Positions 8,426-36,184 are shown, counted from the first letter of the stretch. The stretch is DNA of 64,000 nt from Dehalococcoidia bacterium (GCA_965207895.1 CBDBNN010000003.1:451755-515754); one strand, 5' to 3'. The notes: generated by a model from the letters alone, not told the origin. Program-made: numbers and translations.

Positions 8426-8504
8426 TGGCGACCCGGACGGGATTTGAACCCGTGATCTCTGCCGTGACAGGGCAGTATGTTAAGCCAGACTACACCACCG
8501 GGCC
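8426..8504 (-). tRNA. tRNA-Asp (GTC)
   Basis: Cloverleaf read by eye on the minus strand: acceptor GGCCCGG/CCGGGTC, anticodon stem CTGCC/GGCAG with loop CTGTCAC, T arm ACGGG-TTCAAAT-CCCGT, encoded CCA. Confidence 0.8.
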
Positions 8505-20080: not shown

Positions 20081-20749
20081 TCGGAAGTCGGGACACCACC
20101 GTAGCGAGTACGGTGCAGACTCTCGCCGAGGTGCGCCCAGCGTCCCGGCCATTCCTCATGCCTGCGGCGCAAACGTCACGCGGTTGGGTCGCAGCTTCAA
20201 CGCACGCCGTCCTGCTATGACTCCGCATGGCTGCGTCGCTCTCACGGCACCGGTCTCGGACCGATCTGCAGGCCGGACGCATTTCCTCTCACAGCAGCTC
20301 CCCGGTCCGCATCCCCGTGATATGACCCTGGACGAGCTGCGTTTTTCTCACCCCACTTCGTCCCCGCGTCCGGCATCCGACCGTGGGCGAAGTGCGTCTT
20401 GCGTCAAACGAACCCATCACACACACAACCCGCGCCCCGGATGCCGCGCGGGTCAGCAACATCAATATCAAGGAGGTGCACATGCACGTTGAGTAGTTAG
20501 TAGGCGAGACCAAGGGCGCCGGAGTCGGCATTGACGGCTTCACGCCCCCGCCTCTCGCACACAAGGCCCCCATAACAGTTGGCGAGCAAAGGGCCGCTTC
20601 TTCCTCCGCGCGAGGAAGGGTGGCCCTTCTCTTTGCCAGCAACGAACCCACGGAGACGGTCCCGGCTGCCGGGACATCAATTCGAGCGGGACTGTCTCCG
20701 CCCCACGGGGTGGCGGCCGTCCCGCTTCTTCATTGAAAGGAGAAGCGAC

Positions 20750-21907
20750 ATGACGACGGCAACCACACCAACGACCAATCGGCAGAACACGACGGAGACA
20801 ACGACGGATGCGGCAACGCCCGTTGAGGCCATGGGCAAGCCTGAGAGCGAACTCAGGGCGGTGGCCAGGAAGAAGGGCCTCACCATGAGGGAGCTTGCGG
20901 CCCTGATGGGCGTGAGCGCCAGCCACCTCTCCCAGGTCGGCACGGGCAAGAAGCCCTGGACCCCCAACCTGCGGGAGAAGGCGATGGCTGTGCTGGGCGA
21001 GGTCCCAGGACAGGGCTTCGTCTACCGACAGCGCGGCGAGGTCAATTCGGAGAGCAGCTACATCCGGGAGCAGGCACGGACGATGGGCTACACCATGCGG
21101 GAACTCTCCGACCGGTCGGGGGTGAGCTACTCCTACCTCACCCAGGTGGCCCGTGGCCGCCGCAACATGGGCGTCAAGGTGCAGGCCAGCATCGAATCGG
21201 CTCTTGGGGTGGCGGCCAGGGTCGCTCCGGCCAAGCTCGCCAACCGTCAGGGCGAGGTGGTCGAAGGGACGGACAGCAGCTTCATCCGGGAGACCGCCCG
21301 CGCCCTCGGCATCACCATGCGGGAGCTGGCCGAGAAGGTGGGCGTGTCCGCCGGGTACCTGTCCCAGGTGTCACGCGGGCACAGGAGCATGGGCGTGAAG
21401 CTTCAGGCTCGGGTCGAGGCTGTGCTTGGAGGGCGTGCGAAGGTCGCTTCCGCCCAGTGCCCCGACATCGACCGCCAGTTCATCTGGGAGCAGATGGACG
21501 CGCTAAACGTCAGCCAGAACGAGGTCGCGAGGCGGGCGGGCATCAGCTCCGGTCACCTCTCCCAGATCATGAACGGCCAGCGCAGCCCGTCCGCCGTGGT
21601 CATCAGAAAGCTGCACGGGGCGCTGTTCCGGCGCAGCCAAGACCCGCAGCGGGTGATGCCCGTTGCCATGAAGGTCCTGGGCTGGAAGAAGGGTGAGCGC
21701 AGCGGGATGGTGGTGCACGGCGCCCGTGGCCGGGACGGCACTGCCAGGGGCGGCGCGGTGCGCGTCGGCGGCCGGGTGCCCTGGGGCGCGAAGGTGGAGT
21801 ACGCCTTCCGCGCCGGGTACGACGGCAGGGGCAAGGTGTCGGTGGACCACGTGGTGGCGCCGAGCTGCTCCGCCCTGTTGATGCGGCCGGAGCCTACGAC
21901 CGCTTAA
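20750..21907 (+). CDS. protein with four tandem XRE-type helix-turn-helix domains
   Basis: Four repeats of the pattern (L/Y/I)TMRELAxxxGVSxxYLSQVxRGxR(S/N)M. RBS AAAGGAGAAG before the ATG at 20750. Gly/Arg-rich C-terminus. Confidence 0.75.
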   Translation: MTTATTPTTNRQNTTETTTDAATPVEAMGKPESELRAVARKKGLTMRELAALMGVSASHLSQVGTGKKPWTPNLREKAMAVLGEVPGQGFVYRQRGEVNSESSYIREQARTMGYTMRELSDRSGVSYSYLTQVARGRRNMGVKVQASIESALGVAARVAPAKLANRQGEVVEGTDSSFIRETARALGITMRELAEKVGVSAGYLSQVSRGHRSMGVKLQARVEAVLGGRAKVASAQCPDIDRQFIWEQMDALNVSQNEVARRAGISSGHLSQIMNGQRSPSAVVIRKLHGALFRRSQDPQRVMPVAMKVLGWKKGERSGMVVHGARGRDGTARGGAVRVGGRVPWGAKVEYAFRAGYDGRGKVSVDHVVAPSCSALLMRPEPTTA

Positions 21908-22274: not shown

Positions 22275-23003
22275 TCACAGGGGCAGCGACTCTCCGCTCT
22301 CCCGAAGATGCTGGCGACGCCGCTGCGCGTCCGGCATCACCGAAGCAATGAGTGTCCAGAACTCCGGTGAGTGGTCCCGGTGGGTCAGGTGCGCCAATTC
22401 GTGGACGACGACGTATTCCATCAGCGCCGGTTTCACCATCATGGCGCGCCAGTTGAAGCGCAGCGTCCCGTCGGGCGCGCAACTTCCCCAACGCTGACGC
22501 TGGTCGCGCACCAGCACACGAATCCTATCTCCATGTCCAAGCCGCGGCGTCCACCGTTCGACGACCTCTTCAAGTCTCTCTTGGGCGCGCGAGCGGTACC
22601 AGCGCACTACTGCTCGGCGGATCGACTCGTAGCGTTCATCGCCGCTCAGTCCCTTCGGGGCGGCGACCCGGAACCTCCAGTGATCGAAGCGGACTTCCGC
22701 CCTGCGCACGTCTGCGTCCTCCACAACCATGCGGACGTTGCGGCCCAGATAGGGTAGCGTCTCCCCGCTCACGAAGCGCTTGGGGGCGGTTTCCAGCATC
22801 CGGTCCGAGGCGTGACTCAGTATCCAGCCAGCCCGCTTCCGCACAATGGCGCGCAATTCGTTGACGGGCGTGGTCGTCGGCGCGACGACCTGCACCCCGC
22901 CGCCATCCACCGTGATCTGGACGGTCTTCCTGCGCCGACTGCTGCGTCGCACCTCGTAGTCGATGCTGGTATCGCCGAAGCGTACACGGCCCTCCTCGGT
23001 CAC
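22275..23003 (-). CDS. DUF45/YgjP-like zinc metallopeptidase (WLM/SprT-like)
   Basis: HELAHLTHRDHSPEFW zinc-binding motif. GTG start overlaps the hsdR stop (GTGA). This family is commonly linked to Type I R-M loci. Confidence 0.8.
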   Translation of the reverse strand: MTEEGRVRFGDTSIDYEVRRSSRRRKTVQITVDGGGVQVVAPTTTPVNELRAIVRKRAGWILSHASDRMLETAPKRFVSGETLPYLGRNVRMVVEDADVRRAEVRFDHWRFRVAAPKGLSGDERYESIRRAVVRWYRSRAQERLEEVVERWTPRLGHGDRIRVLVRDQRQRWGSCAPDGTLRFNWRAMMVKPALMEYVVVHELAHLTHRDHSPEFWTLIASVMPDAQRRRQHLRESGESLPL

Positions 23004-26000
23004 TGCCCGCTCCGGCGGCTGGCAAGCTCGACTATCCGGCTGGCCAACTCCTCCAGCTGGTCTTCGGTGTAGTCGCCCTTGGGTCTGAGTTCGCGCTTGA
23101 TGTCCCGGCGCATCAGCCGCCTGACATCCTCGTTCACATGCCAATCCACGACCCTGCTGCGCTGGGCGACGACCGACTCGATCCTCAGGGCAACGCTCCT
23201 GGCCTCCTCATCTATCTGAACGTGGTAAACGCCCTGCTCCTCTGCGATGTGCCGGGGAGGAACCTCTCCATTCTCCGGGCGTCTTTCCAGCAGCGCGTAG
23301 ATGGCGAAGGAGGTGGGTGAGAGACCGAACTCCGCCGCGATGTCGGCCTCGCTTCGCATCCGTCCCCGCACCTCAGCGTAGCGCCGGCACGCCTCGGCAG
23401 CGTCTATCACCCTGTTGCGCAGATCGTCGATGATGCGGGCCAGCTGTTCGGACAAGCGCTCGTAGAATGCGGGATTGTCTCCCAGACTCTCGTGGATCTG
23501 GGAGCGGATGGCGTGCTCCATGATGGACGCCCGCGCCTCGTCGTGGGGCAGGGCGGCGATCTTCTGGTCGAAGTCCCGGTCGAGGATGGACACCGGCCGC
23601 ATCATCTCCCGCACCTGGGCGCTGATGCGCTCGTCCACCAGCTTCTTCACCTTGGCCCCAATCTCCGTCCAGTCGATGTCGGCGTCCTCGCGAAGGAATT
23701 GGGCGCGCACGTAGGCGCGTATCTCCGTGAGCCGCGCCAGCCGGTCCGTGTAGTCCAGCGCGCGCGGGTCCGGCAGGAATCGGTCCATGAGACGGGAGAA
23801 ACCCCGGTAGTCGGCGTTGAACCGCTCGAATACGTGAGCCTTGAGGTTGCCCTCGGTGCTGGCGTCGGGCGCGAAGACGCTGACGCACGCCCAGGTGTCG
23901 CTCAGGTCCCGGCCCTTGAAGTGTGACTCGGCCTGGACGGCCGCGGCCTCGACGACCGACGCCGGGTCCTCGTCCATCTCCTGCATCGTGCCCTGCACAT
24001 CCGACCAGTCGAATGTTGAAAGAACGTCTTCGAGGTCCCGAGATACGCCGTGGTAGTCCACGACCAAGCCGTGGGTCTTTTCGGTCTCCGCCCCGTCCTT
24101 TCTATGCGAGAACCGGCGGTTGACCCTCGCAACGGCCTGAAGCAGCCCGTGCTCCCGCAGCGCTCTATCCAGGTAGAGCACCTGCTCCACGGGCGCGTCG
24201 AACCCGGTCAGCAGCATGTCCACCACGACCAGCACCTCCGGCTCGCCCTCCGGATCGACGAAGGCGCTTTCGACCTGTCCCTGGTCGAGTTCGCGCGCCG
24301 CCTTGAACTCCGGCCCGTCGTTTGGGGCTGTGGTGATGATGGGATAGGCGCTGAGGCCGAAATCCTTCAGTCGGCTGGCGTACCGGAGGGCGGCTACCCG
24401 GCTGGGCGCAACCACCTGGGCCTTGAACCCGTTGGGGCGAATCTTCGCCTTGAAATGCTCGGCGATGTCTAGGGCGATCATCTCGATGCGTCGCTCCGCC
24501 TCAGCCACCGTCTCTTTGTTGGCGTAGCGTCGGCGAATCTGCGCTTGGACAGCGGGCGGCTCGTCGCCGAACATGGCATCGTAGAGCTTGTCCAGGGTCT
24601 CCGGCCCCTCGATGGCAAGCTCGGGCAGGCGCGCCTCGTAGAAGATGGGCACCGTCGCGCCGTCGGCCACCGACTGGGGGATGGTGTAGGTGTCGATGAG
24701 CGAGCCAAAGCGCCCTATGGTGTTGCGCTTGAAGCCCTTCTCTATGGGCGTTCCGGTGAACCCGATGAGCGCCGCGTTGGGCAGCGCTTTGGAGAGCCGT
24801 CCCCCGAGGATGCCGTACTGCGTGCGGTGCGCCTCGTCCACCATGACGATGACGTTCTCCGAGGCGTTGAGCACGTCAAGCTCGCCCTCGGGGGTCGTCA
24901 GCGCCTCCTCGAACTTCTGGATGGTCGTCATGATCGTGCGGCCCGCGCCCGTGGTGAGCAGACGACGCAGGTCCCGGCTGGTCGCCGCCCGCTCCGGCGC
25001 AGGGAAGCCGCAACGCTCGAAGGTGCCGGTGATCTGCCGGTCCAGTTGCGTGCGGTCGGTCACCACGACAATCGTGGGATTGCCCAGACGAGGCTCCCGA
25101 CGCAGCCTCGTCGCCAACCACAGCATGGTCAGGGACTTGCCCGAACCCTGCGTGTGCCAGACCACGCCGCCCCGTTCCTCCGGCTTCAGGCCGGTGAGCA
25201 ATCGCTCCAACCCAGCGCGAACCGTGCGGTACTGCTGGTAGCGTGGCAGCTTCTTAACCACACGTCCCCGCTCCGGCTCATAGACCACATAGTCGCGGAG
25301 GATGTCCAGCAGGGTTGCGGGAGGCAGCAGGCCGACGATGAGCTGGGCCTGCCCCTGGGGTTCGACCCCGTACCTCTGCCTCACGTCGTCCTCGGAATGG
25401 CTCCCAAGCCATTTCCACTCGAAGTAGGCGTTCTCCGGCGCGCCGATGGAGGCGTACGCGGCAGCGGCCCCGCAGTGTGCGACGCACAGCAGGTTGTAAT
25501 GGAAGAGCTCGGGAGCGCCGCTCCCGCGCCACTCCGGCCCTGCCTCCTGGTAACGTCGCAACTGCCGCACCGCGTTGGTCTTCCACACGTCCAACAAGGA
25601 AGGCGACTTCGCCTCCATCACCACTAGGGGGATGCCGTTGACGAACAGCACGATGTCGGGAATGACCATGCGTTCGTCGTCCTCGGCGCCGCCTCTCTCG
25701 TTGGCGCGGCGGACGCGGAACTGGGTGGTGACGACGTACTCGTTGAGTCCGCCTTCAGGATGGTCGAAGTCGAAGAAACGAACGATCCGCGAATCCCTGC
25801 CCTGCGGCCCGTCAACGGTCAAGGGCTTGCCATAGGTCAGATACTCGTGGACCGCCTGGTTGCGGCCCATGCCGGTGGCGTCGATGTGCTCAAGGTCGAA
25901 GATGACCCGCCCGGCCTGGGCCTCGGTCATCCATTCGTTCAGACGAAGCAGGGCCGCTCTCAGGCGCCCCTTCAAGAGCACCTCCCGCTCGTCGCCTCGC

Positions 26001-26131
26001 TCCGCCGCCAGCGCCTCGCGCGGCACGTAGGTCCAACCCAGCTTCTCCAGCAAGCGCCTCGCTGGGTCCTCGGCGTGGTTGAATTCGTTGAGCTTGGAGG
26101 GTGTGGTCATAGGACTCCTAGCTACCCTCAT
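23000..26131 (-). CDS. hsdR: Type I restriction enzyme R subunit
   Basis: N-terminal nuclease motif (PDIVLFVNGIPLVVMEAK), SF2 helicase motifs (WHTQGSGKSLTM; VIVMVDEAHRTQ) and a long C-terminal domain. The start may be the internal MTTPSKL (about 26110). Confidence 0.95.
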   Translation of the reverse strand: MRVARSPMTTPSKLNEFNHAEDPARRLLEKLGWTYVPREALAAERGDEREVLLKGRLRAALLRLNEWMTEAQAGRVIFDLEHIDATGMGRNQAVHEYLTYGKPLTVDGPQGRDSRIVRFFDFDHPEGGLNEYVVTTQFRVRRANERGGAEDDERMVIPDIVLFVNGIPLVVMEAKSPSLLDVWKTNAVRQLRRYQEAGPEWRGSGAPELFHYNLLCVAHCGAAAAYASIGAPENAYFEWKWLGSHSEDDVRQRYGVEPQGQAQLIVGLLPPATLLDILRDYVVYEPERGRVVKKLPRYQQYRTVRAGLERLLTGLKPEERGGVVWHTQGSGKSLTMLWLATRLRREPRLGNPTIVVVTDRTQLDRQITGTFERCGFPAPERAATSRDLRRLLTTGAGRTIMTTIQKFEEALTTPEGELDVLNASENVIVMVDEAHRTQYGILGGRLSKALPNAALIGFTGTPIEKGFKRNTIGRFGSLIDTYTIPQSVADGATVPIFYEARLPELAIEGPETLDKLYDAMFGDEPPAVQAQIRRRYANKETVAEAERRIEMIALDIAEHFKAKIRPNGFKAQVVAPSRVAALRYASRLKDFGLSAYPIITTAPNDGPEFKAARELDQGQVESAFVDPEGEPEVLVVVDMLLTGFDAPVEQVLYLDRALREHGLLQAVARVNRRFSHRKDGAETEKTHGLVVDYHGVSRDLEDVLSTFDWSDVQGTMQEMDEDPASVVEAAAVQAESHFKGRDLSDTWACVSVFAPDASTEGNLKAHVFERFNADYRGFSRLMDRFLPDPRALDYTDRLARLTEIRAYVRAQFLREDADIDWTEIGAKVKKLVDERISAQVREMMRPVSILDRDFDQKIAALPHDEARASIMEHAIRSQIHESLGDNPAFYERLSEQLARIIDDLRNRVIDAAEACRRYAEVRGRMRSEADIAAEFGLSPTSFAIYALLERRPENGEVPPRHIAEEQGVYHVQIDEEARSVALRIESVVAQRSRVVDWHVNEDVRRLMRRDIKRELRPKGDYTEDQLEELASRIVELASRRSGQ

Positions 26132-27086
26132 CGAAAGTAGTTGAACTCCAATGACTGGCTACCCTAAGCACGTAATCGGCACAGATTATGGCATTCAGGG
26201 CTTGCCTGCTTGTATTGTATGCAGCAAAACCGTGACTAGCCGCATGGCGATTCGGTGTCGGACTGTGCCTGATTTCTTCCAGGTTCTCGCTCTCCACCCG
26301 AGCGTAGAGTTCGTGCATGATGTATTTGATGACGACCCACTCGTGGCGACCATCCCAGATCAAATTTCTAAACGGTGTATGACCTACTCGCTCCTGGATT
26401 TCTCCGTACTGCCCGCTCTTCGTTCCTTCGATACCGAGCAAGTCCTCACGAATCACTTTCTCGATTAGAGGCAATACTCCGTAACAGGCTGAGCGAAAAT
26501 AACCTAGCCTATAGACCTCCAACGCTTCACGGACCGCGCTCTTGTCTTCGTCATCTACTGAGTAATCCGATAAGCGCGTGGATATGTCTTCAACTATCTC
26601 GCTTGTACATTCACTGTAATACCGGTCTACGAGGTCGCTGAACGTGCTCTCGTCGTAACTTGAGTCGTCCAAGAACTGTGCAAACGGAACAGTTCTATAT
26701 GGGAGCCATCCGGTGGTTGTGCTTGCCTCTTCCATTCGTTGTTCAAATGCAAATGGATTGGGAAGCTTCAGCACGTCCAACGAGGGGAGCCAGGTGTTTG
26801 GCTGCAAGGTAATCTGGGTTATCTCTGATATGGCCCCCAATTGTTGTGTCAACAGGTGAGCCATAAGGGAAGTCATGCGACTCTGGTCAAGGATCGACTG
26901 TAGACCGCTCGTCATGTGTGCCAACGAGCTTTGCCATCTACCCAATTGCCCTTCCATGATACTGGCCTGAATCTTGAAGGAGTCATCCCACAGCTTGCTG
27001 AATGACGCTGTTATCTGATTCATATCGCTCATCACGTGACGCAGGTCCTCATGGGAGGTACCGCGAACATCATCTTCAGTGCTCAT
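26118..27086 (-). CDS. hypothetical protein on an AT-richer segment inside the R-M operon; possible HEPN-like (R-x4-H) protein
   Basis: Clean 322-codon ORF with 14-nt and 4-nt overlaps with neighbours. C-terminal NRHAASHG fits the Rx4-6H HEPN signature. Composition is clearly AT-richer than hsdS/hsdR. Confidence 0.6.
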   Translation of the reverse strand: MSTEDDVRGTSHEDLRHVMSDMNQITASFSKLWDDSFKIQASIMEGQLGRWQSSLAHMTSGLQSILDQSRMTSLMAHLLTQQLGAISEITQITLQPNTWLPSLDVLKLPNPFAFEQRMEEASTTTGWLPYRTVPFAQFLDDSSYDESTFSDLVDRYYSECTSEIVEDISTRLSDYSVDDEDKSAVREALEVYRLGYFRSACYGVLPLIEKVIREDLLGIEGTKSGQYGEIQERVGHTPFRNLIWDGRHEWVVIKYIMHELYARVESENLEEIRHSPTPNRHAASHGFAAYNTSRQALNAIICADYVLRVASHWSSTTFDEGS

Positions 27087-28351
27087 AGCTGCTTTGCCGC
27101 CGTCCTTCCATGCATACGAACGCGACCCGTCAGCAGCGCCTCTGACGCCGATCCCTTCAGTGCTTGCAGCCTTTCCCGCTCCTCGTGCCCCTGCTCAATG
27201 GCCGAGTCTACGCCAGTCAGCACTGAGGCGATGGTCTGCTGCTCTCGCAACGCCGGAAGTGGAATCGAAAGAGAGTTTGTAGCACCCAGCGTCAGGCCAA
27301 AGCGAGTGACTCCATTGGCGATGCGAGCAAACCGGCTTGCCGTCCGTGGAGACCCTAGTAGCTCAGCCAGATACGCGCCATCGGCTAGCTCCATGCGCGG
27401 TCGTGCCAATCCCAGGTGATAGCCACACAGGACTGTTGGCATATCCGCAGTCACATAGGCGGGAATCCCGATTTCATCTGGCGTTTCCGAGTCCTTCGTG
27501 AAGAGAACGTCGTTCTTCCGCAACGCCCATCGGTCACACTCAACCGGGCTAGCGGTCGCAGCCATAAAGCGCATTCCAGGTCGGATTCGGCGACTGTAGA
27601 AGACATCCGTGTAGTTGCAGAGTTCAACCGGAACCTCGCCGTCCACGGTTCTCTTATCGACGCTACTGAAAGCTACCTCCGTCACATCCCCCAGCCGTAC
27701 CACCTCCCAGTTCGCCGGTATCGTCCCGATGCCCGGCGCTTCCTTCCACTCTGTGTGCCAGCCGGGGACACCGCGGGTGAGGAGTTCGTGTAGTAGAGAG
27801 TCGCGCAGTTGCTCGGTGGCGGCGATGGCTGCATCCGTCCTCTCGATTGCTTCATCGATGCCGTCCAGCACGGCGGCGATGGCCCGCTGTTCGGGTAGTG
27901 GGGGGAGTAGGATGGGGAGATTGCGCAAGTGTGTCCAGGATGTTCTTGGCATCTTGGTCCCACCGACTCCACGCATCGCGTATTCATAGGTCTGGTCGCC
28001 ACGAAGCAAGTGACTGAGAAAGGAACTGTCTGCCTCGCTGCCACCGAATATGGCGAGGATGTCGGTCGAGCAAACGCCGTCAAACTGTGCTCGAATCACT
28101 TTTCTCAGGTTTGGACGAAGCTTCCCGTAAAGCGTGTCACCCTCTCGGAAGAGAGTCTTGTTGCTGATCGACTCTCCCGCTCTTCCGTACCCGTTCAAAG
28201 CCCCCTCAGCAATGATGTGTTCAAGGGCAATGTAAGGCCGGTGATCGTGTTTCGTGGGTTTGACTTGCTCCATGCGGAGATTCGCCACATCCCCCAACTG
28301 CACTACCTGCCAGCCGTCGGGTATCGTCCCATTGTCTCCTGAACGTCCCAT
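27083..28351 (-). CDS. hsdS: Type I restriction specificity subunit (two TRDs)
   Basis: Two target-recognition domains each followed by the conserved L-x-x-L-P-x-L-x-E-Q-x-x-I block (LPPLPEQRAIAAVL; LPALREQQTIASVL). Confidence 0.9.
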   Translation of the reverse strand: MGRSGDNGTIPDGWQVVQLGDVANLRMEQVKPTKHDHRPYIALEHIIAEGALNGYGRAGESISNKTLFREGDTLYGKLRPNLRKVIRAQFDGVCSTDILAIFGGSEADSSFLSHLLRGDQTYEYAMRGVGGTKMPRTSWTHLRNLPILLPPLPEQRAIAAVLDGIDEAIERTDAAIAATEQLRDSLLHELLTRGVPGWHTEWKEAPGIGTIPANWEVVRLGDVTEVAFSSVDKRTVDGEVPVELCNYTDVFYSRRIRPGMRFMAATASPVECDRWALRKNDVLFTKDSETPDEIGIPAYVTADMPTVLCGYHLGLARPRMELADGAYLAELLGSPRTASRFARIANGVTRFGLTLGATNSLSIPLPALREQQTIASVLTGVDSAIEQGHEERERLQALKGSASEALLTGRVRMHGRTAAKQL

Positions 28352-28359
28352 CGGTCTCT

Positions 28360-28710
28360 TCAGTTACCTTCGTCCGTGGGCGGGCGTATCTCGTGGATGG
28401 TCACCGGAAGTCCTGCCCGCTTAGCTTCCAGCCAGCGTTTGAAGGAACGCTGGCTTTCTCCGGAGGGCCATCCTCCCAACAGCATTTCCACGCTGATGTC
28501 CTCATCCAGGGCAGGCCAGTGGATGCCCTCGCCAGCGCCTATCAGCCGCCAGTTGTGGCGTTCCTCAGGCGTGGCGTGGATGAGCCTGGGATACCAGGAC
28601 AGTGGCACCGACACGGTCCGCCCGTCGGAGAGCTCTGCGGTCAGGGTATCGTCGGTCACCTCGACCGTCATGGCCTCCGGCACACTCACCTTAAGCGTTG
28701 AAACGTTCAT
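28360..28710 (-). CDS. DUF2442 family protein
   Basis: Size and sequence pattern of DUF2442. Overlaps the DUF4160 gene by 20 nt, the usual pairing. Confidence 0.65.
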   Translation of the reverse strand: MNVSTLKVSVPEAMTVEVTDDTLTAELSDGRTVSVPLSWYPRLIHATPEERHNWRLIGAGEGIHWPALDEDISVEMLLGGWPSGESQRSFKRWLEAKRAGLPVTIHEIRPPTDEGN

Positions 28711-28927
28711 TCCAAGCCTCCAGAAACGAATTCTGATTTTCCTCGACTATCTTCTCGATGCGGCGTATCTCATGCCGCCTCAATCCGCCTGTCTGTTGAA
28801 GCCTGACCGGCTCCAGCCAAAACTTGGCGATGCGGTCATCGCGTTCGACGTGAATGTGGGGAGGCTCTCCCCGGTCGCTCGCGTAGAAGAAGAACCGGTA
28901 CGGCCCCTCCCTCAGTATGACCGGCAT
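28691..28927 (-). CDS. DUF4160 family protein
   Basis: MPVILREGPYRFFFYASDRGEPPHIHVE is the hallmark N-terminus of DUF4160. Confidence 0.7.
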   Translation of the reverse strand: MPVILREGPYRFFFYASDRGEPPHIHVERDDRIAKFWLEPVRLQQTGGLRRHEIRRIEKIVEENQNSFLEAWNERFNA

Positions 28928-28942
28928 GGTCCACCAAGCCTC

Positions 28943-30469
28943 CTATCTGGCATAGCCCATCTCCGCCAGAAGTTCGTCCATCCTGGCCACCGCCTCATCC
29001 CGCCGCTGCTCCGCCTCTCTCAGTTGAGCCAGCGCCTCCTCTACCGGCATCACCTCAACCGGTTCCGTGGTGTCCACGTAGCGGCTGATGTTCAGGTTGA
29101 AGTCGTTGCCCTGTATCTCCTCAAGCTCTGCGACGTGGGCGAATCGCTTCACGTCCTCGAAGTCCCTGTACGCCTCAACGATCCTGCTTATGTGCTCCGG
29201 GTCGATGAAGTTTTGAGCCTTGCCGGGACGGAAGTAACCCTCTTGGGCCGCGTCCACGAACAGCACCTTCCCCCGCCTCTCCACAGGCTTGGCCTTGTTC
29301 AGCACGCAGATGGCGACGGGGATGCTGGCCCCGAAGAAGAGATTTGGGGTTAGGCCGATCACCGCCTCGAACAGGTCGGCCTCAACGATGCCCCGCCGTA
29401 TCCTTCCCTCCGCTCCGCCACGGAACAGGATTCCGTGGGGCATGACCACGCCCACCATGCCCTGGGAGTTGGTCACTCCCAGCATGTGCAGCAGGAAGGC
29501 GAGGTCGCCCCTGGTTCTGGGCGGCGTTGCACCGTAGCGGTCAAAGCGGTGGTGCGGGTCGTTGGGAGCGAAGTCATGCCCCCAGTTTTTGAGGCTGAAG
29601 GGAGGATTGGCGATAACCCGGTCGTAGGACAGTAGCCGTCCTGACTGGTCCACAAGACCCGGCTCCGCTATCACGTCACCAGCCTCCAATCGACCGGCGC
29701 GGAGCCCGTGAAGGAGCAGGTTGAGCTTGCCGATTGCCAGAGTACCGAGGTTCCGCTCTTGGCCATGCAGCGCGAGGTTCCGGTAGTCTCCGCCCTGTTC
29801 CCGCACGTACTGCGCCGCATAGATGAGCATCCCCCCGGAACCGGCTGTCGGATCGCAGATGCGCATCCCTTCTCGGGGTTGGAGTAACTCGATGATGAGC
29901 CGCACCACCGAGCGGGGCGTGTAGAACTCGCCGCCCTTCTTGCCGGCGTCGTCGGCGAACCGGTTGATCAGGTACTCGTAAGCGTCTCCCAGCACGTCAC
30001 CGCCCCCTGCCGCGTCCCTGCGCAGGTTCTCGTCGCTCAGGTCCAAGTCGCCAAAGTGGTTCAATAGGCTGCGGATGATGCGCTCCCGGTTGGCCGGACT
30101 GCCCAGCTTCGACTCGTCGTTCCAGTTGTTCGGAGCCAGTACGCCTTCCAGCCTGGGGTTGGCCTCTTCAATCGCATGGCTGGCCACGTTGAGCGCCTCT
30201 CCCAAGCCCATGGTGGCTCCCAGGAGAGTGGTCCATCGGGCGGATTCAGGGACGAAGAACTCGTGCTCGTCCTGGTCGGTGAGCGCAACCTCACGGGCAA
30301 CGCCCGACTCCACCGCGCCCTCAACCTCCTCGTCGAAGCGGTCGGAGAGCCGCTTGAGGAAGAGGATGGAGAAGATGTAATTCTTGTAGTCGGCGGCGTC
30401 GATCTGCCCGCGCAGAATGTCGGCGGCCTGCCACAGCTTGGACTCAAGCTCCTGTTTAGTGAGTGGCAA
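28943..30469 (-). CDS. hsdM: Type I R-M N6-adenine DNA methyltransferase subunit
   Basis: N-terminal HsdM_N block (LWQAADILRG ... YKNYIFSILFLKRLSD), AdoMet motif and NPPF catalytic motif. Confidence 0.95.
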   Translation of the reverse strand: MPLTKQELESKLWQAADILRGQIDAADYKNYIFSILFLKRLSDRFDEEVEGAVESGVAREVALTDQDEHEFFVPESARWTTLLGATMGLGEALNVASHAIEEANPRLEGVLAPNNWNDESKLGSPANRERIIRSLLNHFGDLDLSDENLRRDAAGGGDVLGDAYEYLINRFADDAGKKGGEFYTPRSVVRLIIELLQPREGMRICDPTAGSGGMLIYAAQYVREQGGDYRNLALHGQERNLGTLAIGKLNLLLHGLRAGRLEAGDVIAEPGLVDQSGRLLSYDRVIANPPFSLKNWGHDFAPNDPHHRFDRYGATPPRTRGDLAFLLHMLGVTNSQGMVGVVMPHGILFRGGAEGRIRRGIVEADLFEAVIGLTPNLFFGASIPVAICVLNKAKPVERRGKVLFVDAAQEGYFRPGKAQNFIDPEHISRIVEAYRDFEDVKRFAHVAELEEIQGNDFNLNISRYVDTTEPVEVMPVEEALAQLREAEQRRDEAVARMDELLAEMGYAR

Positions 30470-31088
30470 CTAGCGCCTCTCCCATTGATGTGTATACGGC
30501 CCTGCGGCCGATGTCATGGATTACGGAGTCCCTAAGTGTCTCGCGTCGCAGGCGGGCGACCTCGACCGCCGCAACGTAGGCATCCTCGGACACCTCCACG
30601 AGTCTGGCCACTGCATCAAGCTCTCCGTCGGACAGTAATGGAATCTCGATCTCTCCCAAGCTACGTGCGGATAGAGTCGTCACCGTGGCGTTGACCACCA
30701 GCCGCTTGGCGAGTTGCGCTCGGCCCTGGGAGGAAGTGAGGAAATACCAGAGCCAGTGTCCCAAGCCGGATTCGGGTCGCTTGGGCCGCACCACCAGCAA
30801 GGTTACACCTGCAACCGTACGCGACACGCCGGGTGGCACAAGCGCGGTCTGAAGCGACCCTGCGCGGGCCGTCACCAGTATGTCGAAGGGTCTCAGCAGG
30901 TGGCGCTCGGTGCGCAGGGTGCGCACGACTCCCACTTCCCGAAGACCGTGTGATTCCAGCCAACCGTCGTCACGCAGGTCGCCGCTCTCGACGATGCGGA
31001 GCATCCAGTCGCCGCGTTGCGATCCGGCCCCGCGTCCAGCTTGGGCGAGGCCCTGGTGTACATGGGCGAGGTCTGCAACACATGCCAT
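30456..31088 (-). CDS. HsdS-like protein with a single target-recognition domain (half-S)
   Basis: FDILVTARAGSL ... VVRPK ... WLWYFLTS ... IEIPLLSDGELDAVARLVE follows the TRD plus conserved-linker pattern of HsdS. It is only about 210 aa and overlaps the hsdM start. Confidence 0.5.
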   Translation of the reverse strand: MACVADLAHVHQGLAQAGRGAGSQRGDWMLRIVESGDLRDDGWLESHGLREVGVVRTLRTERHLLRPFDILVTARAGSLQTALVPPGVSRTVAGVTLLVVRPKRPESGLGHWLWYFLTSSQGRAQLAKRLVVNATVTTLSARSLGEIEIPLLSDGELDAVARLVEVSEDAYVAAVEVARLRRETLRDSVIHDIGRRAVYTSMGEALVATH

Positions 31089-31173
31089 GCGAGTAACATA
31101 GCAGTGTATGGCTATTCAGTCAATGCTTGACATTGTTACAGGGTCAGTAAGCTGCCGAACATAGGAACATGGC

Positions 31174-31890
31174 CTAGCCTCGCCTCCAAAGCTTACCTCG
31201 TCGGGCCGGAGAGGTCTGTAAGGCTACCCTACCTTCTATCGATCCTCGGCTGCTTCCAAATCGGCTGTCCATGAGAACCGTATTTTTTTGTGTCCGCTTT
31301 CGTGTCGATTGGCAGACGAAGAAGGACTTTGATGCATACGCGATCTCTCTCAGGCTGTCAGTCGCCTGGCGTACCCCGAAGACTGCGCCGACCAACAGCC
31401 ATATCCTGACCTCTGTTTCCTCGTTCAGCTGCAGAACACCCTCCTCGAACAGGTCGTCCCACCCATACAGGTACATCAACTTCTGGGCGCATACCACCGC
31501 ATGCCAATTGAGTTGGGCAATGTCTGCCGGAAGCGTCGCTGCCATCAGCCATCCCCCAGGCAGACCGGCGGCGAAGGAAACGCTGGATGACTTGACGATA
31601 TGCGACATGATGATCGCATCGGCCATCCGGTCAAGCGTTTCCATAGGCACGCCGGCCGCAAGAGGCGTTGTCGCGATCGCCTTCCCGACCTCGATGCTGT
31701 TCTGGGCATAGTAGCGATCCAGCTGTTTCCCCAGGAACGTTCTGCGGTCCACCTTCAGTCCTGGGATAGCCGTCATCGCAGGCAGCAGCCGTCGCAGAAT
31801 GGGGTGAGAATGACTATCCCCACGCCCGTTCTTGCTCTCACTTTCCACGCCGCCATCCTCGTCTTGCGTCCGCGTTGATATGTCGGTCAC
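31174..31890 (-). pseudogene. EcsC-family gene, N-terminal part, disrupted by the integrative element
   Basis: The first ~190 residues look protein-like (AAGLPGGWLMAATLP ... LMYLYGWDD). From about residue 192 the ORF reads low-complexity junk (STRKRTQKNTVLMDSRFGSSRGS...). The displaced C-terminus is at 12746-12916. Confidence 0.45.
31288..31307. repeat. right copy of terminal imperfect inverted repeat (candidate att half-site)
   Basis: 16/20 match to the reverse complement of 12991-13010. Confidence 0.4.
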
Positions 31891-32012
31891 GATTATCTCC
31901 CCACGCTTGTCACATCTATTTTAACTGGTCCGCGCGTGCCCACCTAGTCTACGTGTCTGTAGGATCGGTATCGGCGAGGAATGTAGGTAACGTCACGGCA
32001 ATTGTGGAGCAG

Positions 32013-32291
32013 TTACTTGAGCTTTATGTGCTGAATCAATTCTAGGAATTTTGTGGCATCCTTTTCCCGCTCACTAAGGGTAGTCGTATGGATATAGAGA
32101 TCCGGCGAACGCTCAAGAAACCTCTCCATGAGCCGTCGCTTCTCGCTTTCGACTCGATTCAACTGAGAGGGTTCATATACTAGCAACAGGTCGATGTCGT
32201 TTGGGGAGTCGACGCGAAGGCCTGAACCAAACAAATATGCTTCACTGAAACAGTCGCTGATCAGCGAAGCGATAAAAGAGTAGTCTTGCAC
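32013..32291 (-). CDS. minimal nucleotidyltransferase (MNT, Pol-beta superfamily)
   Basis: hG[GS] and DxD signature LFGSGLRVDSPNDIDLLLVY. AT-rich segment. Confidence 0.75.
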   Translation of the reverse strand: MQDYSFIASLISDCFSEAYLFGSGLRVDSPNDIDLLLVYEPSQLNRVESEKRRLMERFLERSPDLYIHTTTLSEREKDATKFLELIQHIKLK

Positions 32292-32298
32292 CGTTCAT

Positions 32299-33474
32299 CT
32301 ACTTCAGATTGTTATGGGCATAGGCGAAAAACGCAGTTTGATTCGCGAGCCAAACGCCAATCGACTCAGCAAAGTCTTGAGCATCCGCACTTACTGGGCC
32401 GCCATTCCAGTTATGTAGATTTATCACGATGTCACCTTTGTCCAAGGTCATTCCGTGGAGATCAGAGAGAGAAAGTACGTATTTGTAGCACAGGATTACC
32501 GTAACCTTGTCCGCTATAAGCAATTTGGTCAGCTGAGGGAAGTCCGGGAAGCTGTAGCGAATCTGATTCCTTTCCAGCCAATTCGCGAAGAAGACGAGAT
32601 CACTTAGGCGTACATCTGTCGTATGTGCCCTATAATGATGACCATTCCAAAAGATTTGCTGCAGCCTTGGGCGGTCTTCCAAGCTCATTTCAACTACCTC
32701 CCCGTCTTGGAGGTATGCGACGCTTGGGTGGTCTCTAAAGTTCAACGTAACGAGGTTGTCATTAGCAGAGATGACCGACAAAAAGTTCTGGAAAGCTGAC
32801 AGGCTAGGGGGATAGCCGCGCCTCTGAGGTTTAATGCCGAAAAGGGATAATAGACCATCCGGGAAAAATAATATGCGCTCCATAGGCTGGTCTGCTCTCG
32901 TGTGGAGAAACTCATGGGAATGGGCAACGAACTGCTCGACCACGTTTTTGTTCTCGCGGTGCAGGAGGTGTTTGTTCTTAGTCAATAAGAGCTCTAGACG
33001 TTGGTTGTTGCTAACCAGTGCGTTTTCAAATTGACGCCACAGTTTCCCGCTGATGGCTTCTTGGTTTTCGCTATGGGGACCGTAGTCATCAAAAATCTGT
33101 TCATTTCGTTGCAAGAGAGGGACTACGGCACGCTCTAAATCTGCAAAAGAGTTGAATCTCTTTGCAAAGAGGGCATCTAGAGATTTCTTTCTGGAGGCTT
33201 TCCATTGCTGGAGCATCAAGATTGTAGTAGAGGTCCTGTCACTATCTGTAGTTCTGTGGCAGTTGGGGCAGAGGAGGAGTAGGTTATTGGGCTCTATAGA
33301 GCCTCCCCCTGCATGCGGTTCAATGTGAGCAATGTCGGCAATACTCTGCCCATCAACTATGAGTTCGGATTGACAGCTCGGATTCATGCATAGGCCTGCC
33401 GATTCGGACCAAAGTAGTCGCTGGGTGGTAAGTGGGACTGGGGGTCTAGTCATCACAGATACCCAGCGAATCAT
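32299..33474 (-). CDS. HNH endonuclease-domain protein with an uncharacterised ~280-aa C-terminal domain
   Basis: N-terminal C-x4-C ... IAHIEPHAGGGSIEPNNLLLLCPNCH HNH motif. AT-rich. 7-bp gap to the downstream MNT gene, so an operon. Confidence 0.75.
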   Translation of the reverse strand: MIRWVSVMTRPPVPLTTQRLLWSESAGLCMNPSCQSELIVDGQSIADIAHIEPHAGGGSIEPNNLLLLCPNCHRTTDSDRTSTTILMLQQWKASRKKSLDALFAKRFNSFADLERAVVPLLQRNEQIFDDYGPHSENQEAISGKLWRQFENALVSNNQRLELLLTKNKHLLHRENKNVVEQFVAHSHEFLHTRADQPMERILFFPDGLLSLFGIKPQRRGYPPSLSAFQNFLSVISANDNLVTLNFRDHPSVAYLQDGEVVEMSLEDRPRLQQIFWNGHHYRAHTTDVRLSDLVFFANWLERNQIRYSFPDFPQLTKLLIADKVTVILCYKYVLSLSDLHGMTLDKGDIVINLHNWNGGPVSADAQDFAESIGVWLANQTAFFAYAHNNLK

Positions 33475-36107: not shown

Positions 36108-36184
36108 TGGCGCGCCCGGCAGGATTCGAACCCGCGACCCTCGGTTCCGAAGACCGATGCTCTACTCCACTGAGCTACGGGCGC
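36108..36184 (-). tRNA. tRNA-Arg (TCG)
   Basis: Cloverleaf by eye: acceptor GCGCCCG/CGGGCGC, D arm GCTCAGTGGAGTAGAGC, anticodon stem TCGGT/ACCGA with loop CTTCGGA, T arm GCGGG-TTCGAAT-CCTGC, discriminator G and encoded CCA. Confidence 0.8.

What the first reader, a model, noticed from the sequence alone, without database searches (positions are those of the whole stretch)
22275..31088. Eight-gene, translationally coupled Type I R-M operon with three intercalated accessory cassettes
All eight genes are on the minus strand with 4-20 nt overlaps: half-HsdS -> hsdM -> DUF4160 -> DUF2442 -> hsdS -> AT-rich HEPN-like ORF -> hsdR -> DUF45 zinc peptidase. Type I loci are known hotspots for embedded defence genes. 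Here, however, every junction in the operon (M/S, S/R and after R) is occupied, and all reading frames are fused by overlapping stop/start codons. This suggests co-expression and possibly functional coupling, such as a backup abortive-infection or toxin module triggered when restriction is subverted.
Basis: partly seen in the sequence, partly recalled or inferred. Interest (0 to 1): 0.6.

Follow-up and report, generated by a model that had tools for sequence, protein, structure and literature searches.

The report
Type I restriction operon carrying guest genes
This is an intact Type I restriction-modification operon from a sponge-associated Chloroflexota lineage; it carries a toxin-antitoxin pair and a previously undescribed, probably RNA-cutting, defence gene in two slots that hold different guest genes in related genomes, which is a known arrangement containing one new gene family.

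Summary
The eight co-directional genes are real and the domain calls are correct. The junctions are four overlaps (14, 20, 4 and 4 nt) and three short gaps (15, 8 and 7 nt), not all overlaps. I compared 78 orthologous loci chosen by HsdM alone. These show the three "cassettes" are not equivalent.

- **Conserved frame:** the half-S gene (57/76 loci) and the YgjP/SprT-like peptidase (59/63).
- **M/S junction:** a slot for small toxin-antitoxin pairs. The DUF4160-DUF2442 pair sits there in 23/71 loci; elsewhere it holds HicAB or Phd-PIN.
- **S/R junction:** a hypervariable slot, occupied in 66/72 loci by about 60 families, including TIR, DUF3644-HEPN, SIR2-like, OLD and trypsin-like proteins.

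The 322-aa ORF was found in the slot in none of the 78 loci; one has a distant relative just outside the operon. It belongs to a large uncharacterised family: 845 clusters, with no Pfam, NCBIfam or PADLOC hit. The family has an invariant R-x4-H motif, and its best, though weak, fold matches are HEPN proteins.

One leaderless promoter precedes half-S, and no internal terminator-like site was found. Co-expression is therefore likely. PrrC-like functional coupling remains untested. This is a known kind of system (PrrC, the EPEC RRDM island, "guilt by embedding") with a new cargo family.

The parts
31095..31135 (-). Operon promoter. It has a -35 TTGACT, a 17-nt spacer and a -10 TATGTT, and the -10 ends 6 nt before the half-S ATG, which implies a leaderless mRNA. 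A palindrome CAATG-N5-CATTG (31121-31135) overlaps the -35.
   Evidence: Promoter scan. In 49 orthologous loci a TANNNT hexamer ends exactly 6 nt before the half-S start in 20, against 0-3 at neighbouring offsets. A palindrome occupies the same place in other loci.
30456..31088 (-). Half-size HsdS-like gene (210 aa): one TRD-like head plus a C-terminal helix. It is conserved, not hypervariable.
   Evidence: Weak PADLOC Specificity_I/mad5 hits. The family profile A3 hits Esub1 (8vsr/8vsq) and HsdS (5ybb/3okg) at E about 4e-10. Mean column identity is 57% over 30 loci. Present in 57/76 orthologous loci.
28943..30469 (-). hsdM, the Type I N6-adenine methyltransferase (508 aa). It has a TTG start that overlaps half-S by 14 nt, with GGGAGAGG upstream.
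   Evidence: Pfam HsdM_N plus N6_Mtase, E 6e-94. PADLOC MTase_I, E 1e-144. The NPPF motif is visible in the translation.
28691..28927 (-). DUF4160 protein (78 aa), the DhiT-type toxin candidate. A 15-nt gap follows hsdM, with an AGGAGG Shine-Dalgarno sequence.
   Evidence: Pfam PF13711, 71 bits. NCBIfam toxin_DhiT, 24.6 bits, below its 100-bit cut-off. dhiTA literature: PMC8198452.
28360..28710 (-). DUF2442 protein (116 aa), the DhiA-type antitoxin candidate. It overlaps DUF4160 by 20 nt.
   Evidence: Pfam PF10387, 80 bits. The pair occurs in the same slot in 23/71 orthologous loci.
27083..28351 (-). hsdS, a full-length specificity subunit with two TRDs (422 aa).
   Evidence: Pfam Methylase_S, two stretches. 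PADLOC Specificity_I, E 2e-49. The TRDs are unrelated to those of the closest locus L009, while the central conserved region is 90% identical at DNA level.
26118..27086 (-). orf322 (orfX), the cargo gene in the S/R slot. It belongs to an uncharacterised all-helical family with the motif PNRHAAxHG (R280-x4-H285), which is HEPN-like. Its start overlaps the hsdS stop (ATGA), and its TAG stop lies inside the hsdR Shine-Dalgarno sequence.
   Evidence: No Pfam, NCBIfam or PADLOC hit. 44 close homologues. 845 clusters at 50% identity. Invariant residues. AlphaFold2 models with pLDDT 81 and 89. HEPN proteins are the top Foldseek hits. GC is 0.50.
23000..26110 (-). hsdR, the Type I restriction/translocase subunit (1036 aa from the ATG at 26110).
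   Evidence: Pfam HSDR_N, SWI2_SNF2/ResIII, T1R_D3-like and T1RH-like_C. PADLOC REase_I, E 1e-133. The start is fixed by the homology break in the comparison with six orthologous loci.
22275..23003 (-). YgjP-like/DUF45 (SprT-family) zinc metallopeptidase (242 aa) with an HELAH motif. Its GTG start overlaps the hsdR stop (GTGA).
   Evidence: Pfam PF01863, 186 bits. The exact 242-aa product is in the public collection, and a member of its cluster is named 'SprT family zinc-dependent metalloprotease'. It follows hsdR in 59/63 orthologous loci.

Best explanation
The locus is a functional-looking Type I restriction-modification operon. It belongs to a lineage that has spread horizontally among Chloroflexota (Dehalococcoidia/SAR202, Caldilineaceae), Acidimicrobiia and other MAGs, several of them named as sponge-associated.

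The lineage has a conserved frame: half-S - hsdM - [slot 1] - hsdS - [slot 2] - hsdR - YgjP/SprT-like peptidase. The frame is transcribed from one leaderless promoter in front of half-S.

- **Slot 1 (M/S)** holds small toxin-antitoxin pairs. Here it holds a DhiT/DhiA-type DUF4160-DUF2442 pair.
- **Slot 2 (S/R)** is a recombination hotspot that holds one or more low-GC defence-type effectors. Here it holds orf322.

orf322 is a member of a large, undescribed helical family with an invariant R-x4-H motif. I infer that it is a HEPN-type, metal-independent RNase acting as an abortive-infection effector.

Shown:
- gene content and tight spacing;
- promoter geometry;
- which parts are conserved and which vary;
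- cargo diversity and the low GC of cargo genes;
- the swap boundary at the hsdR start codon.

Inferred:
- a single polycistronic mRNA with translational coupling;
- RNase activity of orf322;
- a defence role for the cargo genes.

My preferred reading is that the cargo genes act as autonomous second-line defences. On this view they use the R-M operon as an insertion site and for co-regulation, and they are not physically held in check by the R-M complex. The peptidase is most likely an accessory factor of HsdR, perhaps controlling or removing stalled or self-attacking enzyme, but this is inference only.
For: - Domain content of all eight ORFs.
- Junctions of 15 nt or less, with Shine-Dalgarno-like sequences.
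- One promoter-like site immediately before half-S and no coding-strand terminator-like site inside the operon.
- A -10 hexamer placed 6 nt before the start codon in 20/49 loci.
- An unbiased set of 80 loci selected by HsdM, mapped: half-S in 57/76, YgjP in 59/63, the DUF4160+DUF2442 pair in 23/71, M/S occupied in 64/78, S/R occupied in 66/72, 61 cargo clusters, and 68/76 large cargo ORFs on the operon strand.
- Slot 2 cargo families: CAP12/Pycsar-type TIR, DUF2971, DUF3644 (HEPN), Trypsin_2, DUF6414, AbiJ_NTD4+DUF7014, Mrr_cat, DUF3800, OLD-type AAA_15+TOPRIM, DUF4917/SIR2, ApeA_NTD1, plus MazE-PIN and MNT-HepT.
- Slot 1 alternatives: Phd-PIN, HicA-HicB, DUF4062 and an insertion sequence.
- Cargo GC averages 0.517 against 0.65 for hsdR, and is lower by more than 0.05 in 64/66 cases.
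- The closest locus, L009 (HsdM 96% identical, flanks 93-97% identical at DNA level), carries a DUF6414 gene where orf322 sits. Homology resumes exactly at the hsdR ATG.
- orf322 family: R280 and H285 are invariant across 126 divergent members. HEPN proteins are the top PDB fold hits for both models.
- Family members elsewhere sit beside Cap4 nuclease, Abi_C, DUF4062 and DUF4145 genes in viral contigs, and in a prophage-like region and a conjugative element.
- Literature: embedded genes in Type I R-M are usually defence genes and are co-oriented in 96.7% of cases, and a DUF3644 HEPN protein has been validated as a defence (10.1101/2024.01.29.577857). The EPEC island rptR-hsdM-hsdS-darTG-hsdR-M48 has the same layout (PMC12255303). 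At least 16 HEPN clades are linked to R-M systems (PMC3710099). dhiTA is a DUF4160/DUF2442 toxin-antitoxin system with the toxin gene first (PMC8198452).
Against: - There are no expression data, so the single transcript and the translational coupling are inferred from spacing only.
- The simple scans cover only sigma-70-type promoters and canonical intrinsic terminators, and they did give a 9-of-12 promoter-like match on the coding strand inside orf322 (26897-26924). An internal promoter is therefore not excluded.
- Nine of the ten contexts seen for close relatives of orf322 are the Type I S/R slot. This could instead mean real dependence on the R-M complex.
- The roles of half-S and of the peptidase are unknown.
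Confidence: 0.6

Rival explanations
1. PrrC-like guard. orf322 is kept latent by binding the HsdM2S(R) complex. It is released as an RNase when a phage anti-restriction protein disables the enzyme, so restriction and abortive infection are mechanistically coupled.
For: - It occupies the same position as prrC, between hsdS and hsdR. Its start overlaps the hsdS stop and its stop lies in the hsdR Shine-Dalgarno sequence.
- Nine of the ten contexts seen for close relatives are this same slot.
- The subfamily that includes the window protein has an extra N-terminal pair of long helices, which could be an interaction module.
- The PrrC precedent is documented in PMC12707154 and PMC3710099.
Against: - There is no ABC-ATPase or other nucleotide-sensing domain like that of PrrC/RloC.
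- The wider family is found outside R-M loci: beside orphan methyltransferases, in viral contigs and in a conjugative element.
- The same slot holds about 60 unrelated families. It is unlikely that all of them have evolved a specific interaction with this enzyme.
- In L003 and L007 the homologue is separated from hsdS by 58-485 nt.
Confidence: 0.2
2. Addiction/selfish-cargo reading. The DUF4160-DUF2442 pair, and possibly orf322, mainly stabilise the locus or hitch-hike in a recombination hotspot, and have no anti-phage role of their own.
For: - dhiTA behaves as a classical type II toxin-antitoxin system (PMC8198452).
- Slot 1 is filled almost only with toxin-antitoxin pairs.
- An insertion-sequence transposase occurs in each of the two slots (L063 rve in slot 1; L045 in slot 2, identified by eye only), which shows the slots also accept purely selfish DNA.
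- Several orthologous loci have a fragmented hsdR (L010, L016, L082, L083).
Against: - Most identifiable slot 2 cargo genes are known defence effectors: TIR, SIR2-like, OLD, HEPN, Mrr.
- Embedded genes have been shown experimentally to be enriched for defence functions.
- In that work, dhiTA did not clearly stabilise a plasmid; only ccdAB2 is reported to improve plasmid maintenance.
Confidence: 0.12
3. orf322 is not a nuclease. It is a regulatory or structural accessory of the R-M system, for example a modulator of HsdR loading or an anti-anti-restriction decoy.
For: - The fold evidence for HEPN is weak.
- The family has no annotated relatives.
- One family member is fused to a winged-helix DNA-binding domain.
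Against: - The invariant set G, E, P-N-R, H and Y across members 20-36% identical looks like an active site rather than a binding surface.
- The gene is absent from the slot in all 78 HsdM-selected orthologous loci; one has a distant homologue downstream of the peptidase gene. The enzyme therefore does not need it.
Confidence: 0.08

Closest known systems
EcoprrI-PrrC (prrA-prrB-prrC-prrD) locus of E. coli
   Same: A guest gene with a HEPN-type nuclease signature sits between hsdS and hsdR of a Type I operon, on the same strand and tightly packed.
   Different: orf322 has no ABC-ATPase domain and no detectable sequence similarity to PrrC. Its wider family is not restricted to R-M loci. The locus also carries a toxin-antitoxin pair, a half-S gene and a peptidase.
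RRDM island of EPEC E2348/69 (rptR-hsdM-hsdS-darT-darG-hsdR-M48 peptidase; PMC12255303)
   Same: The overall layout is the same: a first gene upstream of hsdM, a toxin-type module embedded before hsdR, a zinc metallopeptidase directly after hsdR, and one upstream promoter.
   Different: The first gene here is a half-S-like protein, not an HTH repressor. The embedded module is different: a HEPN-like single gene, plus a DhiTA-type pair at a second slot. I did not test sequence homology between the two peptidases.
Embedded defence genes in Type I R-M/BREX/DISARM/Hachiman ('guilt by embedding', 10.1101/2024.01.29.577857), including HEC-08 (DUF3644 HEPN)
   Same: The guest genes are co-oriented, diverse and low-GC, and they sit inside a multi-gene defence system. 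DUF3644 HEPN proteins occupy the same slot in seven of the orthologous loci examined here.
   Different: The orf322 family is not hit by any PADLOC v2 model. It therefore appears to be outside the catalogued candidate sets.
DhiTA toxin-antitoxin system of Dickeya dadantii (DUF4160/DUF2442; PMC8198452)
   Same: The same two Pfam domains, the same toxin-first order, and overlapping genes.
   Different: The score is only 24.6 bits against the NCBIfam DhiT equivalog (cut-off 100), so this is a distant family member. It is embedded in an R-M operon rather than being a free-standing two-gene operon.
Esub1 of Streptococcus pyogenes (PDB 8VSQ/8VSR; PMC11754733)
   Same: A half-size S-subunit-like protein with one TRD-like head plus a dimerisation helix. 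The profile match has E 3e-10.
   Different: Esub1 is encoded away from hsd genes. Here the half-S gene is the first gene of the hsd operon and overlaps hsdM.

Membership tests
Type I restriction-modification system | HsdM with an HsdM_N domain plus an N6-adenine methyltransferase domain (NPPF motif) | tested here: met
   Pfam PF12161 plus PF02384, E 6e-94. 'ANPPFS' is present in the translation.
Type I restriction-modification system | HsdS with two target-recognition domains | tested here: met
   Pfam Methylase_S, two stretches. PADLOC Specificity_I covers residues 9-407.
Type I restriction-modification system | HsdR with an N-terminal nuclease domain and an SF2 translocase | tested here: met
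   HSDR_N, SWI2_SNF2/ResIII, T1R_D3-like and T1RH-like_C. GSGKS and DEAH motifs are visible in the translation.
Type I restriction-modification system | Sequence-specific m6A methylation and ATP-dependent restriction | not testable with these tools
   Requires methylome data or enzyme assays.
HEPN superfamily (for orf322) | A conserved R-x4-6-H motif | tested here: met
   N279-R280-H281-A282-x-x-H285. R280 and H285 are invariant in 126 family representatives.
HEPN superfamily (for orf322) | A four-helix up-down bundle fold similar to solved HEPN domains | tested here: inconclusive
HEPN superfamily (for orf322) | A sequence-profile match to a described HEPN family | tested here: not met
   No Pfam family at E<=0.1 is shared by more than two of the 126 members, none of the 25 listed is a HEPN family, and no profile hit to a PDB sequence is meaningful. 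hhalign against one DUF3644 and one AbiJ-like cargo protein was negative.
HEPN superfamily (for orf322) | Metal-independent RNase activity | not testable with these tools
   A biochemical assay is needed.
PrrC/RloC anticodon-nuclease guards | An N-terminal ABC-ATPase sensor domain | tested here: not met
   No P-loop or AAA family hit. The model is all-helical, with two long N-terminal helices.
PrrC/RloC anticodon-nuclease guards | Gene embedded between hsdS and hsdR | tested here: met
   the same holds for homologues.
PrrC/RloC anticodon-nuclease guards | Latency imposed by the R-M complex and activation by anti-restriction | not testable with these tools
   Requires genetics or biochemistry.
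DhiTA (DUF4160/DUF2442) type II toxin-antitoxin | A DUF4160 toxin gene followed by an overlapping DUF2442 antitoxin gene | tested here: met
   PF13711 at 71 bits and PF10387 at 80 bits. 20-nt overlap. Organisation as described in PMC8198452.
DhiTA (DUF4160/DUF2442) type II toxin-antitoxin | Equivalog-level similarity to DhiT | tested here: not met
   NF048015 at 24.6 bits against a cut-off of 100.
DhiTA (DUF4160/DUF2442) type II toxin-antitoxin | Toxicity that is neutralised by the partner | not testable with these tools
   Requires expression assays.
YgjP-like/DUF45 zinc metallopeptidase (PF01863) | A domain match above the curated cut-off, plus an HExxH motif | tested here: met
   185.7 bits against a cut-off of 26. 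'HELAH' is in the translation.
Half-size S-subunit-like proteins (Esub1-like) | A single TRD-like domain plus one conserved-region helix, about 200 aa | tested here: met
   Profile A3 hits Esub1 at E 3.4e-10 and HsdS 5ybb at 4.1e-10, covering positions 29-187.
Half-size S-subunit-like proteins (Esub1-like) | Homodimerisation and DNA binding | not testable with these tools
   No structure of a complex and no assay.

The most novel reading that the evidence does not exclude
The conserved half-S protein may not be a spare specificity subunit. It may be the operon's own regulator. On this reading a homodimer of single TRDs binds the symmetric bipartite palindrome that overlaps the -35 of the leaderless promoter. 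That palindrome is CAATG-N5-CATTG here and ACAC-N4-8-GTGT in 14 of 61 orthologous loci.

If so, the lineage would be a self-regulated two-slot carrier. It would move between phyla among the Chloroflexota, Acidimicrobiia and other MAGs sampled here, some of them sponge-associated, and exchange toxin-antitoxin and effector cargo genes. One of those cargo genes, orf322, would found a new HEPN-like abortive-infection family of more than 800 clusters.
Probability: 0.15. Interest if true: 0.7.

Novelty: new member of a known kind. Interest (0 to 1): 0.42.

Why it matters
Type I R-M operons that carry embedded defence genes are already documented (PrrC, DarTG in the EPEC RRDM island, the 'guilt by embedding' survey). 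The architecture itself is therefore not new.

Three things are useful here.

1. **A clean natural experiment.** About 80 orthologous loci share one frame, with HsdM 57-96% identical (at least 72% in all but three). They have two defined insertion slots with different cargo classes and base-precise boundaries. This suits the study of how defence cargo genes are exchanged.

2. **A new candidate family.** orf322 belongs to a sizeable family: 845 clusters at 50% identity. The family is missed by Pfam, NCBIfam and PADLOC. It has a catalytic-looking invariant R-x4-H signature and sits in defence or mobile-element contexts, which makes it a concrete candidate for a new HEPN-type defence gene.

3. 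**Two unexplained frame genes.** The half-S gene and the YgjP/SprT-like peptidase travel with this Type I lineage, and their functions are unknown.

Tried and rejected
- **Eight-gene order as an invariant unit: rejected.** The first contexts, found through orf322 homologues, suggested that all eight genes always travel together. That set was biased by the way it was selected. The HsdM-selected survey found orf322 in the slot in none of the 78 loci. Even with a broader HMM, only one distant homologue appeared, outside the operon in L071.
- **Cargo genes swapped together with TRD2 of hsdS: rejected.** Loci that share a cargo family do not share TRD2 more often than other pairs (Mann-Whitney p=0.56).
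- **Sequence-level links of orf322 to known families: none found.** I tried Pfam, NCBIfam, PADLOC and PDB sequences. hhalign against single DUF3644 and AbiJ-like cargo proteins was negative. One 377-aa cargo protein (L039) aligned both motif regions at E 0.007, which is only suggestive.
- **Metagenome scans:** the scan with A4 had no usable pattern. The scan with A2 matched 85 stretches, but none was confirmed.
- **Exact look-up of the window's orf322 product:** no contig was on record.
- **Other features in the region:** the Rfam and tRNA scans found only tRNA-Arg at 36108-36184 and tRNA-Asp at 8426-8504, with nothing inside the operon.
- **Half-S and the promoter palindrome:** loci that lack half-S also lack the GTGTTGAC promoter and palindrome. 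This is uninformative, because the promoter would be lost along with the gene.

Full report
**Observation**

ORF listing shows eight consecutive minus-strand ORFs between 22275 and 31088. Pfam and PADLOC confirm the following:

| Gene | Evidence |
|---|---|
| hsdM | HsdM_N + N6_Mtase |
| DUF4160 | 71 bits |
| DUF2442 | 80 bits |
| hsdS | two Methylase_S stretches |
| hsdR | HSDR_N, SWI2_SNF2/ResIII, T1R_D3-like, T1RH-like_C |
| YgjP-like/DUF45 peptidase | 186 bits |

The first ORF (210 aa) has no Pfam hit. A profile built from 30 orthologues matches the half-size S-like protein Esub1 (PDB 8VSR/8VSQ) and true HsdS chains at E about 4e-10. The label 'half-HsdS' is therefore fair. The 322-aa ORF has GC 0.50 against 0.63-0.65 for its neighbours.

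The junctions are as follows:

| Junction | Spacing |
|---|---|
| half-S / hsdM | 14-nt overlap |
| hsdM / DUF4160 | 15-nt gap |
| DUF4160 / DUF2442 | 20-nt overlap |
| DUF2442 / hsdS | 8-nt gap |
| hsdS / orf322 | 4-nt overlap (ATGA) |
| orf322 / hsdR | 7-nt gap |
| hsdR / YgjP | 4-nt overlap (GTGA) |

Two starts had to be corrected:
- hsdR begins at the ATG at 26110. DNA homology to six orthologous loci starts between 26089 and 26112, exactly at 26110 in two of them, and an AGGAG lies 5 nt upstream.
- The peptidase begins at the GTG at 23003. The resulting 242-aa product exists verbatim in the public collection.

The claim that every frame is fused by an overlap is therefore wrong in detail. 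The tight packing is real.

**Transcription**

The simple scan finds one sigma-70-like site directly in front of half-S: TTGACT-17-TATGTT at 31123-31095. It finds no terminator-like site on the coding strand inside the operon. Its only other coding-strand promoter-like site in the operon is a 9-of-12 match inside orf322, at 26897-26924.

The -10 ends 6 nt before the ATG, which implies a leaderless mRNA. Comparison supports this. In 49 orthologous loci a TANNNT hexamer ends exactly 6 nt before the half-S start in 20, with only 0-3 at neighbouring offsets. A single operon is thus the most economical reading, but it remains an inference.

**Orthologous loci**

Homologues of orf322 were first used to find contexts. 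Nearly all sat between hsdS and hsdR, and several loci repeated the whole eight-gene order. That set was biased by its selection.

I therefore searched one genome per species with HsdM alone. This returned 80 loci with HsdM identity of 57-96% (at least 72% in all but three). They come from Dehalococcoidia/SAR202, Caldilineaceae, Acidimicrobiia, an acidobacterial MAG and others. Several record titles point to sponges (Candidatus Poriferisodalis, Candidatus Spongiisociaceae), and I take the RHO and COS bin names to be sponge labels, which is my reading. The closest locus, L009 (Chloroflexota RHO1_bin_9), is 93-97% identical to the window at DNA level across the flanks.

Mapping the loci gave these counts:

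| Feature | Count |
|---|---|
| half-S present | 57/76 |
| YgjP after an intact hsdR | 59/63 |
| DUF4160+DUF2442 pair | 23/71 |
| DUF2442 alone | 10/71 |
| M/S junction occupied (>150 nt) | 64/78 |
| S/R junction occupied (>150 nt) | 66/72 |
| S/R cargo clusters | 61 |
| Large S/R ORFs on the operon strand | 68/76 |

orf322 was found in none of these loci. A broader HMM added only a distant homologue about 900 nt downstream of the peptidase in L071.

Per-gene identity between the window and the orf322-selected loci:

| Gene | Identity |
|---|---|
| hsdM | 69-85% |
| hsdR | 69-80% |
| YgjP | 65-72% |
| half-S | 54-70% |
| DUF4160/DUF2442 | 57-84% |
| hsdS | 33-41% |
| orf322 | 34-48% |

**The two slots**

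Slot 2 (S/R) representatives carry these domains:
- CAP12/Pycsar-type TIR (14 loci)
- DUF2971 (9)
- DUF3644, which is HEPN (7)
- Trypsin_2 (5)
- DUF6414 (4, including L009)
- AbiJ_NTD4 + DUF7014
- Mrr_cat
- DUF3800
- OLD-type AAA_15 + TOPRIM
- DUF4917/SIR2-like
- ApeA_NTD1

MazE-PIN and MNT-HepT also occur in this slot.

Slot 1 (M/S) holds DUF4160-DUF2442, Phd-PIN, HicA-HicB, multiple HicB-like genes, DUF4062 or an insertion sequence.

Cargo genes are low in GC: mean 0.517 against 0.65 for hsdR, and lower by more than 0.05 in 64/66 cases. The AT-richness of orf322 is therefore a general property of cargo genes.

Between the window and L009, homology is lost over TRD1 (27920-28289) and over TRD2 plus orf322 (26111-27682). 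It is kept in the central hsdS conserved region and resumes at the hsdR ATG. A test for co-transfer of cargo genes with TRD2 across loci was negative.

**orf322**

- **Sequence searches.** No Pfam, NCBIfam, PADLOC or PDB sequence hit was found. The word-index search found 44 relatives. The exhaustive profile search found 845 clusters at 50% identity with E<=1e-3, and 296 with E<=1e-30. None of 126 diverse representatives matches a Pfam or PADLOC family, apart from one winged-helix fusion.
- **Conserved residues.** The invariant residues are G126, E209, P278, N279, R280, H285 and Y290. The motif is PNRHAxxHG, which is an R-x4-H signature.
- **Structure.** AlphaFold2 gives a confident all-helical C-terminal domain (pLDDT 89, pTM 0.89) preceded by two long, lower-confidence helices.
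- **Fold comparison.** Foldseek against the PDB ranks small HEPN proteins first for both models (1ufb, 1wol, 1o3u, 2hsb). Sacsin HEPN, AbiV and HepT rank lower. E-values are only 0.7-5. BFVD returns two uncharacterised siphovirus proteins with the same fold.
- **Assessment.** I rate HEPN membership as probable, about 0.65, but not established.
- **Contexts outside R-M loci.** These comprise a prophage-like region next to a Dam methyltransferase, a ParB-methyltransferase neighbour, a conjugative element, and six IMG/VR contigs where neighbours include Cap4 nuclease, Abi_C, DUF4062, DUF4145 and phage structural genes.
- **One further context.** Another relative again lies directly before hsdR-YgjP.

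**Literature**

- The DUF4160/DUF2442 pair is the DhiTA toxin-antitoxin type, with the toxin gene first (PMC8198452; PMC12065111).
- Genes embedded in Type I R-M, BREX, DISARM and Hachiman systems are mostly defence genes and are co-oriented in 96.7% of cases. A DUF3644 HEPN protein was validated, and its activity depends on the histidine of the motif (10.1101/2024.01.29.577857).
- The EPEC RRDM island has the layout rptR-hsdM-hsdS-darTG-hsdR-M48 peptidase, with one upstream promoter (PMC12255303).
- At least 16 HEPN clades are linked to R-M systems, with PrrC as the paradigm (PMC3710099; PMC12707154).
- Esub1 is a half-S homodimer that is suspected to be a DNA-binding regulator (PMC11754733).
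- A literature search returned papers on defence-gene enrichment in sponge symbionts (PMC5649159, PMC5099237, PMC8163846). I did not read them.

**Interpretation**

The locus is a Type I R-M operon of a horizontally mobile lineage with a conserved frame and two cargo slots. Occupied junctions, however, are the rule in this lineage, and the three 'cassettes' have different evolutionary status.

Co-expression is likely. A PrrC-like physical coupling is possible (about 0.2) but disfavoured, for three reasons: orf322 lacks a sensor ATPase, slot 2 holds a very wide range of cargo families, and the orf322 family also occurs outside R-M loci.

The functions of half-S and of the peptidase remain open. 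A palindrome overlapping the -35 could be an operator: CAATG-N5-CATTG here, and ACAC-N4-8-GTGT in 14/61 loci against a 3.5% background. The idea that half-S binds it is speculative.

**Verdict**

This is a correct observation with minor errors and an ordinary kind of system. It contains one new and sizeable candidate defence family, and it provides an unusually clear comparative picture of cargo exchange.

Noticed in passing
window 31095-31135 (-), and the equivalent positions upstream of half-S in L006, L010, L011, L015, L020, L024, L036, L040, L049, L058, L065, L067, L073: A palindrome overlaps the -35 of the operon promoter. It is CAATG-N5-CATTG in the window and L009, and ACAC-N4-8-GTGT(TGAC) in 14 of 61 loci that have half-S, against a 3.5% background per 900 nt. 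GTGTTGAC occurs in 13 of 49 upstream regions against a 0.24% background. It may be an operator for a dimeric regulator. The binder is unknown.
   Followed up: partly
window 31174-33474 (-): A low-GC patch (0.47-0.50) lies upstream of the operon. It holds a 238-aa ORF with no family hit, a 92-aa ORF with weak nucleotidyltransferase similarity, and a 391-aa HNH-domain protein. The closest relative, L009, loses homology at 31326, so this patch is another variable, possibly defence-related, region.
   Followed up: partly
window 20579-21907 (+): A 442-aa protein with four tandem HTH_3 (XRE-type) repeats lies convergent to the end of the operon. It is shared with L009 and partly with L012. Its internal repeats are about 69% identical at DNA level (21048-21235 against 21270-21457).
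   Followed up: no
L009-L088: The same Type I lineage occurs in different phyla: Chloroflexota, Actinomycetota (Acidimicrobiia, Ca. Poriferisodalis), an acidobacterial MAG, and a Polyangiaceae MAG at 57% HsdM identity. This implies inter-phylum horizontal transfer. Several of the MAGs are named as sponge-associated.
   Followed up: partly
L010, L016, L082, L083: In several orthologous loci hsdR, and sometimes hsdM or YgjP, is broken into many short ORFs. These are decaying copies or assembly frameshifts.
   Followed up: no
L039:14364-15497: A 377-aa slot 2 cargo protein with no Pfam hit carries 'SRHSVGHG'. It aligns with the orf322 family over both conserved motif regions (hhalign E 0.007), so it may be a remote relative.
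   Followed up: partly
L071:17769-18881: A distant orf322-family member (E 3e-10 with the broad HMM) lies about 900 nt downstream of the peptidase gene, next to the R-M operon rather than inside it.
   Followed up: no
L005, L097: Outside Type I loci, orf322-family genes sit next to orphan DNA methyltransferases: Dam/MethyltransfD12 in L005 and ParB_N-N6_N4_Mtase in L097. This hints at a recurrent link with methyltransferases.
   Followed up: no
window 36108-36184 (-): tRNA-Arg (TCG) lies about 5 kb upstream of the operon, beyond a ThiF/MoeB gene (33531-34406). I did not examine it as an island boundary.
   Followed up: no
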